A DNA stretch of 64,000 nt from a virus (Duplodnaviria; Heunggongvirae; Uroviricota; Caudoviricetes): the IMG/VR virus record IMGVR_UViG_2537561946_000006; one strand, written 5' to 3'. Numbering within the stretch: the stretch's first letter is position 1; the number at the start of each line of letters is the position of its first letter. Positions 8,200-21,696 of the stretch are shown here, piece after piece. Position numbers and translations under genes: made by a program. The notes under the pieces were generated by a model. That model did no database searches, had not been told where the DNA came from, and worked only from the letters and a program-made list of their open reading frames with translations.

Positions 8200-8252
8200 G
8201 GGCGGCAGAGCAGCCACGGAGTAAAACTGATACCGCCAAACGTCACCAGAAA
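8200..8252 (-). ncRNA. dicF: DicF small RNA
   Basis: reverse complement TTTCTGGTGACGTTTGGCGGTATCAGTTTTACTCCGTGGCTGCTCTGCCGCCC, 52/53 to recalled DicF, followed by T-tract. Confidence 0.85.
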
Positions 8253-13635: not shown

Positions 13636-14409
13636 TTATATGCTGAAATGAATAATGCTATTCCAGAGTGCAGCAGAGAAAGTCTCCTGATGATTGAGCT
13701 CTGGAAATTGTACAATAGAAAAATTACTGTATTTTTCTGTCAAAATATTTCTCAAAACAGATTCCGCTTTGATGGCTTCAGGATATAAAGATGCGGAGTA
13801 ATCAAGGCTAAGATTTCCGTTAAGCAAGCATATACTTTTAGTGTGCTTTGATTCTGATATATCATCTTTAATTATCTTGATGATTCTTTCATTCTGCCAT
13901 AGAAGTGATGGTGCAGATATATAATAATAGTTAAAGCATGAATTATTTTTTAAGCAATCAAGCACAAAAATAGCACCTAGCGAGTGCCCCCATATACCGA
14001 TTCTGGAACTGTTCGGAGCAATAGTACTAACCCATGGCATGATCTGAGTTAGTAATAATTCTCGGAAAGACTGGCTTCCTCCACCAGTAAAGTAGATCCA
14101 TGCTGGTTTAGAGTTATCAACAATAGCATTTTCACCATCAGGAGTATAATCGTAAGCACGGCGATGAATGCTAAGGTTATTCCAAGATTCATAACCAAGT
14201 GTAACTAACACTGGTGGATTGGGTAGTGCATCAATAACAGGCAGAATATCAGAAATGTAATTGTTGGCACTATTCCCATCAAGTATATAAAGAGTTGCAT
14301 TATTTTTTTTAATGTTTTTTGGAGTAAAAATACATATTTTATATTTGGTGTCATGGTTAATTGAGTTAAATATGCGTGTTTGACAATGAATGTCCATATG
14401 TTTAGTCAT
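13636..14409 (-). CDS. alpha/beta-hydrolase fold protein (esterase-like), AT-rich moron
   Basis: GHSLG nucleophile elbow (GxSxG); 257 aa; strongly AT-rich relative to flanking phage genes; opposite strand. Confidence 0.7.
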   Translation of the reverse strand: MTKHMDIHCQTRIFNSINHDTKYKICIFTPKNIKKNNATLYILDGNSANNYISDILPVIDALPNPPVLVTLGYESWNNLSIHRRAYDYTPDGENAIVDNSKPAWIYFTGGGSQSFRELLLTQIMPWVSTIAPNSSRIGIWGHSLGAIFVLDCLKNNSCFNYYYISAPSLLWQNERIIKIIKDDISESKHTKSICLLNGNLSLDYSASLYPEAIKAESVLRNILTEKYSNFSIVQFPELNHQETFSAALWNSIIHFSI

Positions 14410-14969
14410 GCGTTCTCCCCATGAGCATTAAAGGATGCTTAAGATATGCTATGTCACTGATAAAAAATTTGTTGTGTGTGTTTAGTTATTTTATCTACCT
14501 CCATTATGATTTAAGACTGATATATGTTATCAGCAAAGGTACATCGTTATTATTTTACCTGTCAATACATTTGATATTGATTAGCGTTTACATCGCTTGC
14601 TTAGGAAATTGAAGGCAGGTAACTATCATGTCAATGAACTAACCCACAGTCTAACGTACTTCTTTCCCCAATCACCAACAACCAAATTCCTGTTATCACC
14701 ACTGGGATTTTGGCGCAACTTCATGGTGCAGAGGTAAATAGCATCAAGCAAAATCTCTTTTTCCGTTGTTGTCCTTATGGGACGTCTGTCTTTCTGACCG
14801 ATTTCATATTGGCGAGGTAATGGGAAGTTAAGTAGAATAGCTGCGGGTGCTTGAGGCTATCTGCCTCGGGCATGAACACCAACGGCAGATAGAGAAAAGC
14901 CCCAGTTAACATTACGCGTCCTGCAAGACGCTTAACATTAATCTGAGGCTCAATCTATGAACGGCAAAT

Positions 14970-16043
14970 CTAGGTTAGCCTCTTACGTGCCGAAAGGCAA
15001 GGAGATGTATGGGTCCACCACATATTGCAATTTTTATTCTCTTTTAAAATATATTCCACGGGCGTCATTAGTGCGAGCGCCTTGTGGGGTCTTTTGCTGT
15101 TATACAGCACCAGATATTCCGCCAGCTTCTGGTTAAATAGCGCCAGATCTTCAAAGAGTAAAATCTCATTAAATTCAATAAACTGCTCTCTTAACGTCCG
15201 GTTAAAACGTTCACAGATAGCGTTCATTTTTGGCGTGTAGGGATAGGTCCAGAGGTGTTTGATAGCGGCTTCCTGCAGCGTTTTGTCGAAGTTTCCCAGG
15301 AACTCTTTTCCGTTATCTGTGATTATCTGGCTGATACCGACCGGGAACAACCGGGCTGCGCGGCTGAAGAAGTGATTGACGATATCACTGTTGAGTGACG
15401 GCACAGCCAGCGCCAGCGCGTAATTGCTGCATTCGTCGATCATGGTGATGACATAGCGACGCAGTTCGCCCATTCTGAGCTCAATGGCGTCCATCCCAAT
15501 GAGCTCACCTGTCTTTACCGGGCGGTAGTGCTTTGGCCTGCGGGGTTTGGCAGACCGCTTTTTGACAAGCAGTGCCTTCCCCCGCGATCCCAGACGCACA
15601 GGTATCATCCGCATTTTATCATGTGCGGCAGCGATCATTCTGCCGATGGTGGAAACACTCGGACAGGCCAGATAGCGCTGTTCGCACCAGGGCTTCAGGC
15701 GAACAAAAATCTGCTCTTTACCGAGGTTCGGCAGCTCTGTCCTGAGGCGTCGAATCTCTTTCAGCACATCGGGATGCCAGTGTTTTTTTCGTCGCACCAG
15801 AGGTGCCTTACTGTGCGGGATTAGCCCCTCAGGTCCTTCCTTGTTCAGTAACTGACGCCACCAGTAAAGCGTGCGGCAGGACACGCCAAAGGCTTCAGAA
15901 GCTGCAGAAATACCGTGTTTATCCCAGAAGTGCAGAGCCTTCATTCTCATTGTTGCTATATCAGCCATCACTGAAAGCCTCAACGCATAATCGGCCGTTT
16001 GGTAGTACTTAGGATAGCCAACCATCAGATGCTGCATTTGCAT
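14970..16043 (-). mobile_element. IS transposase gene (DDE integrase-core type, IS481-like); element ends not resolved
   Basis: 357 aa with N-terminal HTH and DDE core ...DNGKEF...; interrupts the nin-region. Confidence 0.75.
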
Positions 16044-16114
16044 AGTGCAATCTCCCCTTACTTATCCGGAGGCAATTGCAATATCTCTGTGAACTTACAC
16101 AGGAGAAGCAGGCT

Positions 16115-16270
16115 ATGAAGCAGCAAAAGGCGATGTTAATCGCCCTGATCGTCATCTGTTTAACCGTCATAGTGACGGCACTGGTAACGAGGAAAGACCT
16201 CTGCGAGGTACGAATCCGAACCGGCCAGACGGAGGTCGCTGTCTTCACAGCTTACGAACCTGAGGAGTAA
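16115..16270 (+). CDS. hok: Hok/Gef-family membrane toxin (HokD/RelF-like)
   Basis: MKQQKAMLIALIVICLTVIVTALVTRKDLCEVRIRTGQTEVAVFTAYEPEE, 51 aa. Confidence 0.85.
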   Translation: MKQQKAMLIALIVICLTVIVTALVTRKDLCEVRIRTGQTEVAVFTAYEPEE

Positions 16271-16437
16271 GAGACCAGGCGGGGGAGAAATCCCTCGCCA
16301 CCGCTGATGTGTCAGGCATCCTCAACGCACCCGCACTTAACCCGCTTCGGCGGGTTTTGTTTTTTCTGGTCGTTCTGGTTTACAATCCATCCGTCAGCCT
16401 GAACAACTGGCACCTGCTGCGCCAGCAGAGAAAACAG

Positions 16438-16716
16438 ATGGCGCACGATACCAAATTTTACAATTCGGATAACTCTGCCGCCCCTGCCAGCAGGCACGGG
16501 CGGCGTTCTCATGCATTCAAATCTGACTGGTATCAGCACGACCCCTGCACCGAAGAACAGGCTGAATGGCTGATTCAGTGTTACCGCAGGCGCGGATACG
16601 AGATTAAGAAAGCCCTCAGCCTCGACTACCGTCACTGGATAATCTCCGTCAGGCTTCCTTACTCCGAACGCCCACCGCGTCCGTCCCGCACATTCCAGCA
16701 ACGGATCTGGAGGTAA
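16438..16716 (+). CDS. hypothetical phage protein
   Basis: 92 aa from ATG at 16438; precedes DUF968-like gene. Confidence 0.4.
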   Translation: MAHDTKFYNSDNSAAPASRHGRRSHAFKSDWYQHDPCTEEQAEWLIQCYRRRGYEIKKALSLDYRHWIISVRLPYSERPPRPSRTFQQRIWR

Positions 16717-16717
16717 C

Positions 16718-17764
16718 GTGCGGGTATTACTTCGACCTGTTCTGGTACCGGAACTCGGGCTGGTGGCCCTTAAGCCAGGTCGTGAATCCATGCAGGTATT
16801 TCACAATACCCGGGTACTGGTGGAGCCGGAACCGAAAAGCATGCGTAATCTGCCGTCCGGGGTCGTTCCTGCCGTTCGCCATCCGCTGGTGGAAGACAAA
16901 ACATTGCTGCCATTTTTCAGCGACGAACGAGTGATTCGTGCTGCTGGTGGTGCTGGTGCATTGTCTGACTGGCTGTTGCGCCATATTAAATCCTGCCAGT
17001 GGCCACACGGCGATTATCACCACAGCGAAACTGTCATTCACCGTTATGGTACCGGCGCAATGGTGTTGTGCTGGCACTGCGACAACCAGTTGCGTGACCA
17101 GACCTCCGAATCACTCGGGCAACTTGCTCACCAAAATTTGTCAGCATGGATGATTGACGTCATACGCCATGCAATGAATGGCACGCAGGAGCGGGAATTA
17201 TCTCTGGGTGAATTATCCTGGTGGGCGGTCTGCAATCAGGTGGCGGATGCGCTACCAGAGGCAGCATTACGTCGTTCTCTGGGGTTACGTGCGGAAAAAA
17301 TCCGCTCGGTGTACCGCGAAAGCGACATCATACCGGGAGAACAGACAGCCACCAGCATCCTGAAACAGCGCACAAAAAATCTTGCGCCGCTGCCTCACGC
17401 CCACCAGCAAAACCCGCCACAGGAAAAGACGGTGGTAAGCATTGCCGTTGATCCGGAGTCTCCGGAATCCTTCATGAAACGACCTAAACGTCGCCGCTGG
17501 GTAAATGAGAAATACACACGCTGGGTAAAGACACAGCCGTGTGCGTGTTGTGGTAAGCCAGCGGACGATCCTCATCATCTGATTGGTCATGGTCAGGGCG
17601 GAATGGGAACAAAATCCCACGATATTTTCACGCTACCGCTGTGTCGGGAGCATCACAACGAGCTTCATGCGGATCCGCTGGCGTTCGAAGAAAAGCATGG
17701 TTCCCAGGTTGATTTAATTTTTCGTTTTCTTGATCACGCCTTTGCAACCGGCGTGCTCGGGTAA
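16718..17764 (+). CDS. DUF968-like nin-region protein with C-terminal HNH-like zinc motif
   Basis: 348 aa, GTG start after GGAGG; CACCGKPADDPHHLIGHGQGG...LCREHHNELH. Confidence 0.65.
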   Translation: MRVLLRPVLVPELGLVALKPGRESMQVFHNTRVLVEPEPKSMRNLPSGVVPAVRHPLVEDKTLLPFFSDERVIRAAGGAGALSDWLLRHIKSCQWPHGDYHHSETVIHRYGTGAMVLCWHCDNQLRDQTSESLGQLAHQNLSAWMIDVIRHAMNGTQERELSLGELSWWAVCNQVADALPEAALRRSLGLRAEKIRSVYRESDIIPGEQTATSILKQRTKNLAPLPHAHQQNPPQEKTVVSIAVDPESPESFMKRPKRRRWVNEKYTRWVKTQPCACCGKPADDPHHLIGHGQGGMGTKSHDIFTLPLCREHHNELHADPLAFEEKHGSQVDLIFRFLDHAFATGVLG

Positions 17765-20363: not shown

Positions 20364-20439
20364 GGCCCTTTAGCTCAGTGGTGAGAGCGAGCGACTCATA
20401 ATCGCCAGGTCGCTGGTTCAAATCCAGCAAGGGCCACCA
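20364..20439 (+). tRNA. tRNA anticodon CAU (Ile2/Met-type, ileZ-like)
   Basis: GGCCCTTTAGCTCAGTGG...ACTCATAATCG...GGTTCAAATCC...AAGGGCCACCA, 76 nt. Confidence 0.9.
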
Positions 20440-20539: not shown

Positions 20540-20616
20540 GCGTTGTTAGCTCAGCCGGACAGAGCAATTGCCTTCTAAGCAATCGGTCAGTGGTTCGACT
20601 CCACTACAACGCGCCA
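20540..20616 (+). tRNA. tRNA-Arg anticodon UCU (argN/argO-like)
   Basis: GCGTTGTTAGCTCAGCC...CCTTCTAAGC...GGTTCGACTCC...ACAACGCGCCA, 77 nt. Confidence 0.9.
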
Positions 20617-21382: not shown

Positions 21383-21696
21383 TTTTTTTGTTTGCTGTTT
21401 ATTAAAAACACTTCTGCATGGTGAATCCCCCTGTGCGGAGGGGCAATCAGCGAGTAGGTATATGGGATAATCGCGGATTCAGGTGCTGGTACTGAATTCA
21501 CCGGGAGGCACCCGGCACCATGCTTTGCCACAAAAGTGTTATTTCTGTTTTTCTCAAACTATCATCGTTATCCCTTTATTTCCGGCTGCGCATGGCGCGG
21601 CCTTTTTTTTACGACCAGCCACTGGCAGATGGTCATCCTGTGATTTGATTCCGGTTCCGGCTTTTTAACTCTGTTCCTGTACACGGGAGAAATTCG

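What the first reader, a model, noticed from the sequence alone, without database searches (positions are those of the whole stretch)
14970..16270. Orphan hok toxin gene directly abutting an IS element
A HokD/RelF-like toxin ORF starts ~70 bp from the transposase start, so its usual upstream mok/sok or relBE context is replaced by IS sequence. An outward IS promoter could drive the toxin, or the locus may be silenced.
Basis: partly seen in the sequence, partly recalled or inferred. Interest (0 to 1): 0.45.

Follow-up and report, generated by a model that had tools for sequence, protein, structure and literature searches.

The report
IS-split hok/sok toxin–antitoxin locus
The hok toxin gene is not an orphan: a 1,096-bp insertion sequence has landed in the ribosome-binding site of a complete prophage hok/sok toxin–antitoxin locus, at a spot where the same insertion-sequence lineage has repeatedly hit other hok/sok loci, so this is an ordinary, probably silenced, module.

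Summary
A 51-aa Hok toxin ORF (16115-16270, +; nucleotide-identical to K-12 hokD) starts 13 nt from the end of an IS481-family element (15006-16101) and 71 nt from its divergent transposase start.

The "orphan" interpretation is wrong. The full hok leader lies intact on the other side of the IS at 14809-15005: hok promoter, tac, ucb, mok start, Sok target, and the antisense sok gene with its promoter (Rfam sok model 102 bits, gathering score 59). The IS is flanked by a 5-bp duplication (GGAGA). Removing the IS and one repeat gives a sequence found uninterrupted in over 1,800 complete E. coli genomes.

The insertion cuts hok's Shine-Dalgarno region, 5 bp from the sok -35. It ends mok inside the IS, breaking mok-hok coupling. 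No convincing outward promoter was found. The toxin is most likely silent and sok is left as an orphan antitoxin (inferred).

The same allele is in 54-55 of 5,426 E. coli genomes. The same or ISKpn28-like IS sits at the homologous nucleotide and orientation in at least four divergent hok families and at least 1,188 plasmids. IS-inactivated hok loci and hok/sok insertion hotspots are already published, so interest is low to moderate.

The parts
14809..14838 (+). hok promoter-like site (TTGGCG-18-TAGAAT), ending 7 nt before the leader's 5' end
   Evidence: The only sigma-70-like site found on the + strand in 14700-16450 (9/12). Its position matches the upstream region of K-12 hokC/hokB in the alignment. 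Function inferred.
14845..15005 (+). hok mRNA 5' leader: tac (14845-14856), tac/ucb hairpin (14846-14865 with 14884-14903), Sok-target hairpin, mok start region; ends at the IS
   Evidence: Rfam RF01794 at 102 bits, gathering score 59, E=2.5e-23, model positions 1-157. Conserved blocks with K-12 hokC and hokB leaders. Inverted repeat I2.
14957..15136 (+). mok reading frame: native start at 14957, now running into the IS and stopping at 15134-15136 (59 aa, 16 native codons plus 43 IS-encoded)
   Evidence: ORF list. The ATG aligns with the annotated mokC start. In the IS-free reconstruction it is in frame with hok, giving a 70-aa Mok as in K-12 MokC.
14889..14965 (-). sok antisense RNA gene (antitoxin), about 77 nt: long hairpin plus U-rich tail
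   Evidence: The annotated K-12 sokC and sokB both map to these columns. The fold is -33.3 kcal/mol, z = -5.6, hairpin followed by CUUUUCUCU.
14972..15000 (-). sok promoter core: -35 TTGCCT (15000-14995), 17-nt spacer, -10 TAACCT (14977-14972); the -35 is 5 bp from the IS end
   Evidence: Located, 7 nt upstream of the transferred Sok 5' end. It scores only 7/12 to consensus, so the assignment rests on its position relative to the transferred Sok 5' end. My recollection of the R1 sok promoter (TTGCGC/TATCCT) agrees but was not checked with a tool.
15001..15005 (.). left copy of the 5-bp target-site duplication GGAGA
15006..16101 (-). IS481-family insertion sequence (ISKpn28-like, 1,096 bp), transposase on the - strand; tnp-distal inverted repeat 15006-15033, tnp-proximal inverted repeat 16074-16101
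   Evidence: 100% identical full-length copies on unrelated plasmids and chromosomes. Inverted-repeat alignment. PMC6985150 describes 'a novel IS with ... 85% sequence identity to ISKpn28' in E. coli.
14970..16043 (-). transposase ORF (357 aa); it has no stop codon inside the IS, so the last 11 codons and the stop (15005-14970) are read from the flanking hok leader
   Evidence: The annotated ORF length varies with insertion site (348-372 aa).
16102..16106 (.). right copy of the duplication GGAGA; together with A16101 it regenerates the hok Shine-Dalgarno AGGAGA
16115..16270 (+). hok (HokD-type) toxin CDS, 51 aa, intact
   Evidence: Pfam HOK_GEF E=1.2e-23. Identical to the K-12 hokD CDS. RefSeq annotates the same allele as hokD.
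16076..16114 (+). IS-end TTG (16076) preceded by GGAGG (16068-16072); it opens a frame continuous with hok (a 64-aa N-extended Hok); use unproven
   Evidence: The same frame is open in R1-type (L009) and Klebsiella (L012) hok junctions and is closed by a stop in L008.
16320..16332 (+). fbi (fold-back inhibition) element complementary to tac
   Evidence: It pairs with 14845-14856 in the MFE fold of the IS-free mRNA (z = -6.0) and of the 1,521-nt read-through RNA.
16339..16365 (+). hok intrinsic terminator
   Evidence: 7-bp GC-rich stem, then TTGTTTTTT.

Best explanation
This is a complete HokD-type hok/mok/sok type I toxin-antitoxin locus in the nin region of a lambdoid prophage, split in two by a simple transposition. 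The element is a 1,096-bp IS481-family (ISKpn28-like) insertion sequence, and it entered hok's ribosome-binding site and duplicated GGAGA.

Left of the IS are the hok promoter, the tac and ucb elements, the mok start, the Sok target, and the antisense sok gene with its core promoter. Right of the IS are the regenerated SD, the intact hok CDS, the fbi element and the terminator.

Consequences (inferred):
- mok translation now ends inside the IS, about 980 nt before hok, so the mok-to-hok translational coupling that hok needs is lost.
- Any hok-containing RNA must come from read-through across 1.1 kb of IS, or from weak internal starts.
- The toxin is therefore most likely silent and the module has lost any killing function.
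- Sok is probably still made, as an orphan antitoxin that could act on paralogous hokD-type mRNAs in other prophages.

The site is not random. This IS lineage inserts next to [G/T]CAA followed by a 5-bp duplication, in one orientation. The conserved GCAAGGAG of hok loci (sok -35 plus hok SD) is one of its two favoured targets.
For: Structure (shown):
- Rfam sok/hok-leader hit at 14845-15011 on the hok strand, 102 bits against a gathering score of 59.
- The leader aligns with the K-12 hokC and hokB leaders. The annotated sokC and sokB map to 14965-14889, and the mok ATG is at the mokC position.
- The Sok fold has z = -5.6.
- TGT...ACA ends and a GGAGA duplication.
- The IS-free reconstruction matches 620/620 nt in one ungapped piece at up to 98.9% identity, and at least 80% of it is covered in 1,828 E. 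coli genomes.
- The reconstruction folds with the tac-fbi closure, z = -6.0, and has mok in frame with hok.

Silencing (inferred):
- mok stops at 15134-15136.
- No promoter-like site in the IS end facing hok.
- The hok AUG is sequestered in all predicted folds, and in the read-through RNA the SD and AUG pair with IS-end sequence.
- The allele is tolerated: it is in 54-55 of 5,426 complete E. coli genomes.
- K-12 and 1,173 genomes carry hokD with the same leaderless 5' end behind relBE.

Recurrent targeting:
- The identical IS is at the homologous nucleotide and orientation in R1-type hok (L009, GGAGA) and in a third plasmid hok (L008, GGAGG).
- An ISKpn28-type IS is at the same site in a Klebsiella hok (L012).
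- The leader+IS junction is in 1,188 plasmid records.
- In a scan not selected for hok, 17 of 43 IS copies abut hok-type leaders, none in the opposite orientation, and 22 of 26 distinct flanks obey CAA+5 bp.
- There are 16 distinct leader alleles among 19 junctions, with hok always 13 nt from the IS end and full-length wherever its stop lies within the fetched flank.

Literature:
- K-12 hok loci are inactivated by IS elements, point mutations or rearrangement (PMC7232551 citing Pedersen & Gerdes 1999).
- hok/sok homologs lie near MGE-insertion hotspots in E. coli and K. pneumoniae (bioRxiv 10.1101/527788).
- ISKpn28 lies upstream of hokG in IncHI5 plasmids (PMC6339943).
Against: - No expression data were available, so silence of hok and activity of sok are inferred from architecture and folding only.
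- The hok SD is regenerated by the duplication, and the hok ORF is intact in every IS-bearing locus that could be read. This fits recent insertions but also fits retained function.
- An IS-end TTG with an upstream GGAGG opens a frame continuous with hok. It could in principle substitute for mok if the region is transcribed.
- No terminator was found in the IS on the hok strand, so read-through from the hok promoter is possible.
- The sok promoter matches consensus weakly (7/12), and its upstream flank is now IS DNA.
- The plasmid count (1,188) is inflated by clonal plasmid lineages.
- Target preference and selection for hok inactivation cannot be separated with these data.
Confidence: 0.85

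Rival explanations
1. The IS activates or rewires hok. An outward promoter in the IS end, or read-through from the hok promoter, together with the IS-borne GGAGG-TTG start in frame with hok, drives toxin expression free of Sok control, because the Sok target now lies upstream of the IS.
For: The SD AGGAGA is regenerated and hok is intact. A TTG at 16076, preceded by GGAGG, opens a frame continuous with hok in three of four hok families. There is no terminator in the IS on the hok strand. An RNA that starts inside the IS would lack the Sok target.
Against: No promoter-like site in the last ~100 nt of the IS facing hok; the best candidate is 8/12 with -35 CAGCCA, 125 nt upstream. The GGAGG-to-TTG spacing is only 3-4 nt. 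The predicted folds sequester the hok SD and AUG. Unregulated Hok is lethal when Sok is removed from an intact locus (PMC9841398), yet this allele persists in 54-55 genomes and the equivalent plasmid junction in over 1,000 plasmids.
Confidence: 0.1
2. hok is a true orphan, like K-12 hokD behind relBE: its regulatory half was lost and replaced, and the upstream leader-like sequence is a chance or decayed remnant.
For: RefSeq annotation of the identical allele lists only hokD and the transposase, with no mok or sok. K-12 hokD really does lack a leader.
Against: The leader scores 102 bits over the whole Rfam model. It is 100% identical over 120 nt to leaders of uninterrupted loci, and together with the hok side it reconstitutes, to the nucleotide, a locus present in over 1,800 genomes. 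The target-site duplication shows a simple insertion, not a replacement.
Confidence: 0.02
3. The recurrent IS-hok association reflects common descent or hitch-hiking of one ancient insertion (plus recombination), or post-insertion selection alone. It does not reflect target-site preference of the transposase.
For: Prophages and plasmids spread horizontally and clonally. Many of the 1,188 plasmids are near-identical Klebsiella plasmids. IS loss-of-function hits in toxins are expected to be selectively favoured (a view also voiced in bioRxiv 10.1101/527788).
Against: The 100%-identical IS sits in three hok families whose flanks are too divergent for shared descent, one with a different duplication (GGAGG against GGAGA). 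Further diverged hok-like leaders (class C, L013) are hit at the equivalent region with other duplications. Orientation is 17:0 among pattern-scan loci, and non-hok sites share the [G/T]CAA+5 bp rule. A second unrelated recurrent target (STnc100-proximal, two alleles, duplications TACTC and TGCTC) shows the element is site-selective in general.
Confidence: 0.15

Closest known systems
IS-inactivated chromosomal hok loci of E. coli K-12 and B (hokA, hokC, hokE, hokX; Pedersen & Gerdes 1999, as summarised in PMC7232551)
   Same: A chromosomal or prophage hok/sok module disabled by an insertion sequence while the toxin ORF stays intact. In K-12, IS186A ends 19 nt beyond the hokC stop, that is, in its 3' region.
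   Different: The IS family differs (IS481/ISKpn28-like, not IS186 or IS150). The position also differs: inside the hok SD, between the sok -35 and the hok ATG, which separates the leader, mok and sok from hok rather than cutting the 3' fbi region.
K-12 relBE-hokD (relF) arrangement in the Qin prophage
   Same: The hok CDS, 3' UTR, fbi and terminator are identical. hok lacks its leader from exactly the same nucleotide (...ACA|GGAGAAGCAGGCTATG in both). The prophage neighbourhood downstream is the same (DUF968/ydfU, Q).
   Different: In K-12 the upstream DNA is a discrete ~712-bp relBE module, and no leader survives nearby. In the window there is no relBE, and the leader and sok are retained 1.1 kb upstream.
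ISKpn28 'upstream of hokG' in IncHI5 plasmids (PMC6339943), and hok/sok as MGE-insertion hotspots (Durrant et al., bioRxiv 10.1101/527788)
   Same: The same IS lineage next to hok genes, sometimes with adjacent deletions (compare L011 and L045 here). Recurrent MGE insertion near hok/sok in E. coli and Klebsiella.
   Different: In the passages I retrieved, neither paper gives the nucleotide-level site, the orientation rule or the retained leader and sok. The window's case is a prophage hokD-type locus with an E. coli variant of the IS (about 85-87% identical to ISKpn28-type copies).
Plasmid R1 hok/mok/sok
   Same: All RNA elements are recognisable (tac, ucb, Sok target, fbi, terminator). There is an antisense Sok with a terminator hairpin.
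   Different: Here mok is in frame with hok, as in K-12 mokC. The Sok hairpin carries an 18-nt insertion relative to sokC and sokB. The locus is interrupted.

Membership tests
hok/mok/sok type I toxin-antitoxin locus | Small Hok/Gef-family membrane toxin ORF | tested here: met
   Pfam PF01848 at 82.9 bits (cutoff 22), E=1.2e-23. CDS identical to K-12 hokD.
hok/mok/sok type I toxin-antitoxin locus | Conserved hok mRNA 5' leader (tac, ucb, Sok-target region) on the hok strand | tested here: met
   Rfam RF01794 at 102 bits against a gathering score of 59, full model. However, it is separated from hok by 1,096 bp of IS.
hok/mok/sok type I toxin-antitoxin locus | mok reading frame that starts in the leader and overlaps hok (translational coupling) | tested here: inconclusive
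   The start at 14957 aligns with mokC, and in the IS-free reconstruction it runs in frame through hok. In the actual sequence it ends in the IS at 15134-15136, so the feature is present ancestrally and broken now.
hok/mok/sok type I toxin-antitoxin locus | Antisense Sok RNA gene with its own promoter and terminator hairpin, overlapping the mok start region | tested here: met
   Annotated sokC and sokB map to 14965-14889. Hairpin plus U-tail, z = -5.6. -35/-10 at 15000-14972. Sequence-level evidence only; expression was not tested.
hok/mok/sok type I toxin-antitoxin locus | Long-range 5' tac / 3' fbi pairing that closes the full-length mRNA | tested here: met
   Predicted in the MFE of the reconstructed mRNA and of the 1,521-nt read-through RNA (14845-14856 with 16320-16332). 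In silico only.
hok/mok/sok type I toxin-antitoxin locus | Post-segregational killing or Sok-dependent repression of toxicity | not testable with these tools
   Needs genetics or expression assays.
IS481 family insertion sequence (ISKpn28 group) | Single DDE transposase matching the IS481 family model | tested here: inconclusive
   NCBIfam NF033577 transpos_IS481 E=1.6e-65, 221.5 bits, just under the curated cutoff of 224. It is by far the best family (IS3 scores 98 bits). Pfam rve, rve_3 and HTH_32/28 match, and LZ_Tnp_IS481 matches weakly. RefSeq names the identical protein 'IS481 family transposase'.
IS481 family insertion sequence (ISKpn28 group) | Terminal inverted repeats and short target-site duplication | tested here: met
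   TGT...ACA ends and ~28-bp imperfect inverted repeats. 5-bp duplications at each of the six distinct insertion sites where both junctions were read and matched.
IS481 family insertion sequence (ISKpn28 group) | Identity to the ISfinder ISKpn28 reference | not testable with these tools
   ISfinder is not available. Copies annotated 'ISKpn28 family' match junction or IS-end queries at about 87%. PMC6985150 reports an E. coli IS 85% identical to ISKpn28.
relBE-hokD (Qin) arrangement | relB and relE immediately upstream of hokD | tested here: not met
   No relBE in the window. Upstream of hok there is the IS and then the hok leader.

The most novel reading that the evidence does not exclude
The ISKpn28 group of IS481-family elements may be site- and orientation-specific 'hok/sok hunters'. 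On this reading their transposase recognises the conserved GCAAGGAG (sok -35 plus hok SD), or more generally [G/T]CAA+5 bp next to strongly transcribed small-RNA genes, including STnc100. It thereby repeatedly uncouples Hok toxins from their leaders on plasmids and prophages, acting as a natural neutraliser of addiction modules. The same nucleotide is also the breakpoint of the classical K-12 relBE-hokD fusion, so the hok SD would be a general recombination or insertion hotspot that created that textbook arrangement. A bolder add-on is that the IS end supplies an in-frame GGAGG-TTG start that replaces mok and puts hok under IS-dependent control.
Probability: 0.45. Interest if true: 0.55.

Novelty: new member of a known kind. 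Interest (0 to 1): 0.32.

Why it matters
For annotation: a hok gene next to a transposase is easily called an orphan, and RefSeq annotates only hokD and the transposase here. The cognate antitoxin RNA and leader are in fact present 1.1 kb away. Type I TA censuses that look only at the toxin ORF will misjudge such loci.

For biology: the case adds a prophage HokD-type example to the known pattern of hok loci being disabled by IS elements. The cross-locus comparison shows that one IS lineage does this at a single nucleotide and in one orientation, in at least four hok families and over a thousand plasmids. If that reflects transposase targeting, it would give a simple natural route for plasmids and prophages to lose addiction. 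It would also supply a defined target sequence for studying IS481-family site choice.

The shared breakpoint with K-12 relBE-hokD hints at how that classical arrangement arose.

None of this changes the verdict that the locus itself is an ordinary, probably inactive, mobile-element scar.

Tried and rejected
1. Outward IS promoter driving hok. The tool scan and my lenient scan found nothing convincing, so this is kept only as a low-probability rival.
2. IS remnant in the K-12 relE-hokD spacer. By eye, only ACA at the junction and an ACAGAGAT 8-mer at a different distance are shared. A local BLAST attempt failed because the locus file was not on the scratch disk. No hok leader is present in 6 kb of Qin. 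The remnant idea is not supported.
3. relBE module as a transposon. I searched for an inverted copy of its ...GCGTTGACA end and for terminal inverted repeats in K-12 and plasmid pBL12EC-2. None was found, so the coincidence of breakpoints stays unexplained.
4. The species-representative genome scan for the IS end gave only 2 loci. One was a 566-bp contig labelled Streptomyces that carries a hok-like leader, likely contamination. It was too few for statistics, so the viral-contig scan (41 loci) was used instead.
5. The class B (STnc100-proximal) target motif was not found in the window. The window's STnc100 allele differs in that region.
6. The weak Rfam hits at the hok 3' end (isrK 27 bits, rsmX 21 bits) are below their gathering scores and simply overlap the hok 3' stem-loops and terminator, so they were rejected.
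7. The Fozo 2008 review was not held. Pedersen & Gerdes 1999 is a subscription-journal paper that I did not try to fetch, so its content is cited second-hand via PMC7232551.
8. The position-wise IS identities of about 0.75 are artefacts of 1-nt indels and were not used.
Full report
WHAT IS THERE. The window region 14400-17000 holds a 51-aa ORF on the + strand at 16115-16270. It is a clear Hok/Gef toxin (Pfam PF01848, E=1.2e-23), and its nucleotide sequence is identical to K-12 hokD from the Shine-Dalgarno through the stop codon. Divergent from it, on the - strand, is a 357-aa DDE transposase at 14970-16043. It matches Pfam rve, rve_3 and HTH domains. Its best NCBIfam family is transpos_IS481, at 221.5 bits, just under the curated cutoff of 224. 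The neighbourhood is a lambdoid prophage nin region. Upstream lie DUF1627, DUF977 and an alpha/beta hydrolase; downstream lie a small ORF, DUF968 (ydfU-like), RusA and the Q antiterminator.

THE IS AND ITS LIMITS. The element runs from 15006 to 16101 (1,096 bp). It has TGT...ACA ends and imperfect ~28-bp inverted repeats, and it is flanked by a direct GGAGA repeat at 15001-15005 and 16102-16106. Full-length copies that are 100% identical occur on unrelated plasmids and chromosomes. At other insertion sites the same ends are flanked by other 5-bp duplications: CTCAG, GAGTG, GGAGG, TACTC and TGCTC. The IS end is only 13 nt from the hok ATG. The transposase ORF has no stop codon inside the IS, so its last 11 codons and its stop are read from the flanking DNA. 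Accordingly, the annotated length changes with the insertion site.

THE KEY POINT: THE REGULATORY HALF IS ON THE OTHER SIDE OF THE IS. Rfam's 'sok' model (RF01794) in practice covers the hok mRNA leader up to the hok AUG. It matches 14845-15011 on the hok strand at 102 bits (gathering score 59, E=2.5e-23), and the alignment breaks off exactly where the IS begins. It is the only such hit in the 64-kb window.

I aligned the flanks, with the IS removed, to the annotated K-12 hokC/mokC/sokC and hokB/mokB/sokB loci. The conserved tac block (GCGGGTGCTTGAGGCT), the ucb block (GGCAGATAGAGAAAAGCCCC), TTAGCCTCTTAC and GGCAAGGAGAAG all appear. The ATG at 14957 aligns with the mokC start. Both annotated Sok RNAs map to 14965-14889 on the - strand. 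That RNA folds into a long hairpin followed by a U-rich tail (-33.3 kcal/mol, z = -5.6). A -35/-10 pair (TTGCCT-17-TAACCT, 15000-14972) sits 7 nt upstream of it, and its -35 is 5 bp from the IS end. A hok promoter-like site (14809-14838) lies 7 nt upstream of the leader's 5' end, and an intrinsic terminator (16339-16365) follows hok.

Deleting the IS and one GGAGA copy gives a 620-nt sequence. It is found as a single ungapped piece, at up to 98.9% identity, in other E. coli genomes such as O26 RM10386. At least 80% of it is covered in 1,828 of 5,426 complete genomes. In that reconstruction mok is in frame with hok, giving a 70-aa Mok of the same type as K-12 MokC. The minimum-energy fold closes the mRNA by pairing the 5' tac with a 3' fbi element (16320-16332; z = -6.0). 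So this is a complete hok/mok/sok locus that has been split. It is not an orphan toxin whose context was replaced.

CONSEQUENCES (INFERRED). The insertion lies inside hok's SD, and the duplication regenerates AGGAGA on the hok side. The mok frame now reads into the IS and stops at 15134-15136, so the mok-dependent translation of hok is uncoupled. That dependence is established for the hok family. Mutations in the mok start codon are among the suppressors of Sok-less R1 hok toxicity (PMC9841398).

I found no convincing outward promoter in the IS end facing hok. The tool scan found none, and the best lenient match is 8/12 with a poor -35, 125 nt upstream. No terminator-like site lies in the IS on the hok strand, so read-through from the hok promoter is possible. 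In the predicted fold of that 1,521-nt RNA the tac-fbi closure persists, and the hok SD and AUG pair with IS-end sequence. In folds of the hok-proximal RNA the AUG is again sequestered by the downstream complement.

The allele is clearly tolerated. The same left and right junctions are present in 54 and 55 of the 5,426 complete E. coli genomes. In addition, 1,173 genomes, including K-12, carry hokD stripped of its leader at the same nucleotide behind relBE. I therefore consider hok most likely silent. The sok gene and its core promoter are intact, so Sok is probably still made as an orphan antitoxin. All of this is inference; no expression data were available.

One caveat: a TTG at 16076 in the IS end, preceded by GGAGG at a short 3-4-nt spacing, opens a frame continuous with hok. 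If the region were transcribed, this could mimic mok. I keep it as a low-probability rival.

THE SITE IS A RECURRENT TARGET OF THIS IS LINEAGE. I fetched the top-ranked full-length plasmid matches and read six of them at the junctions. The 100%-identical IS sits at the homologous nucleotide and in the same orientation in two other, divergent hok/sok loci:
- an R1-type locus, ...GCGCAAGGAGA|IS|GGAGAAGAAGGCCATG (L009);
- a third type, ...TTGCAAGGAGG|IS|GGAGGAGTAAACCATG (L008), which has a different duplication.

In a further plasmid (L011) an R1-type leader ends at the same nucleotide, but the IS's other flank lies inside a DUF1778 antitoxin gene. That is an IS-mediated rearrangement which has separated the leader from hok.

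A diverged ISKpn28-type element (1,094 bp) occupies the same site in Klebsiella plasmid p628-KPC. Rfam finds the sok/hok leader abutting the IS in all four plasmid loci (86-102 bits). The R1-type leader+IS junction query is covered by at least 80% in 1,188 plasmid records. This count is among the 5,000 best-scoring records, and many of those are clonal Klebsiella plasmids. In all, 2,385 plasmid records carry the IS lineage.

To avoid selection bias I scanned the viral-contig and species-genome collections for the conserved 26-nt IS end. Of 43 copies:
- 13 abut Rfam-type hok leaders;
- 3 abut a diverged hok-like leader (class C);
- 1 abuts another hok-like leader (L013);
- 17 abut the small-RNA locus STnc100, at about 11 nt, in two target alleles with duplications TACTC and TGCTC;
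- 9 lie elsewhere.

None is in the opposite orientation, and 22 of 26 distinct flanks have CAA (21 of them [G/T]CAA) immediately before the 5-bp duplication. Among 19 IS-abutting hok leaders there are 16 distinct alleles. hok is always 13 nt from the IS end and is full-length wherever its stop lies within the fetched flank. An identical IS in flanks this divergent, with different duplications, means independent insertions. I cannot say how much of the enrichment is due to transposase target choice and how much to selection for disarming the toxin.

WHAT IS ALREADY KNOWN. K-12's five hok loci are described as non-functional through insertion elements, point mutations or rearrangement, and hokX in E. 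coli B as IS-inactivated (PMC7232551 citing Pedersen & Gerdes 1999). In K-12, IS186A ends 19 nt past the hokC stop. A survey of mobile-element insertions reported hok/sok homologs near insertion hotspots in E. coli and K. pneumoniae and suggested adaptive disruption (bioRxiv 10.1101/527788). ISKpn28 'upstream of hokG', sometimes with adjacent deletions, was noted in IncHI5 plasmids (PMC6339943). ISKpn28 was also said to have a relatively specific site upstream of holin in Klebsiella prophages (PMC6908951). An unnamed E. coli IS 85% identical to ISKpn28 has been reported in multiple copies (PMC6985150). hok enrichment in prophages is documented (bioRxiv 10.1101/2025.08.07.668861). I did not find a statement of the nucleotide-level site, the orientation rule or the retained leader and sok, but my literature access is partial.

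THE K-12 COINCIDENCE. Homology between K-12 hokD and intact hokD-type loci begins at AGGAGAAGCAGGCTATG, the nucleotide where the IS sits here. K-12 reads ...GCGTTGACA|GGAGAAGC and the window reads ...CTTACACA|GGAGAAGC. The relBE DNA is a discrete ~712-bp module that ends at the same ...TTGACA on plasmid pBL12EC-2, where it is followed by unrelated sequence. I found no terminal inverted repeat, no similarity to the IS beyond the junction ACA and a displaced 8-mer (by eye), and no hok leader in Qin. Whether this is a shared hotspot, a lost-IS rearrangement or chance remains open.

VERDICT. The 'orphan, context replaced' interpretation is refuted, the 'silenced' alternative is favoured, and the 'outward promoter' idea is unsupported. 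The locus is a new example of a known kind, an IS-disabled hok/sok module, and the same allele is already present in dozens of sequenced genomes. The cross-locus site specificity of the ISKpn28-like lineage is the only part with some wider interest.

Noticed in passing
window 14970-15005 (and L006-L009): The IS transposase ORF has no stop codon inside the element. It reads through the tnp-distal inverted repeat, and its last codons and stop come from the flanking target (11 codons from the hok leader here). The protein's C-terminal tail and annotated length (348-372 aa) therefore depend on the insertion site.
   Followed up: partly
window 21387-21559 (+); L015 5296-5498, L025, L035: The window carries an intact STnc100 sRNA locus (Rfam 101.5 bits). 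In 17 of 43 scanned IS copies the same IS lineage is inserted about 11 nt from the start of STnc100 in other prophages (duplications TACTC and TGCTC), with the sRNA transcribed away from the same IS end as sok is. This is a second recurrent target. The target motif is absent from this window's allele.
   Followed up: partly
K-12 L003 2789-3500 (- strand); L056 1350-2062: relBE is a discrete ~712-bp module (GCTCCTGGCACAAAGC...GCTTTGCGTTGACA) found both upstream of hokD in Qin and on plasmid pBL12EC-2 next to unrelated DNA. Its right end joins hokD at exactly the nucleotide used by the IS in the window. No terminal inverted repeats were detected.
   Followed up: partly
L011 (E. albertii p3RM10507) 235-1530; L045; L030: These are IS-mediated rearrangements at the hotspot. 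A hok leader and sok are retained on one side of the IS, while the other side is a different locus (in L011 a DUF1778/GNAT type II TA gene), without a matching duplication. Orphan sok/leader halves therefore also exist.
   Followed up: partly
L032 4430-4647, L041, L045 (left flanks); L013: These are diverged hok-like leaders (GCGGGTGCC..., AAAGGCCCCG, GGTTAGCG.CTCT, AAGGAGCAAG) that fall below Rfam's sok gathering score, yet they are hit by the same IS at the ribosome-binding region. They may represent hok/sok subfamilies missed by the current model. L013 is a 566-bp contig labelled Streptomyces malaysiensis, which is probably contamination.
   Followed up: no
window 16253-16256: hok codon 47 is TAC followed by G (UACG), the TadA A-to-I editing context reported for the Tyr-to-Cys recoding of hokB and, according to bioRxiv 10.1101/2025.08.07.668861, also of hokC, hokD and hokE. 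It is retained in this IS-split copy.
   Followed up: no
window 8200-8251 (-), 20364-20436 (+), 20540-20613 (+): A DicF antisense RNA (75 bits) and two tRNA genes lie in the same prophage. This fits a Qin/Stx-like lambdoid prophage layout.
   Followed up: no
leader alleles in L018, L020, L038 versus window 14846-14903: The tac/ucb hairpin shows compensatory changes between alleles (GGCTATCTGCC...GGCAGATAG against GGCTGTCTGCC...GGCAGACAG). This supports the hairpin being under structural selection even in IS-bearing loci.
   Followed up: no
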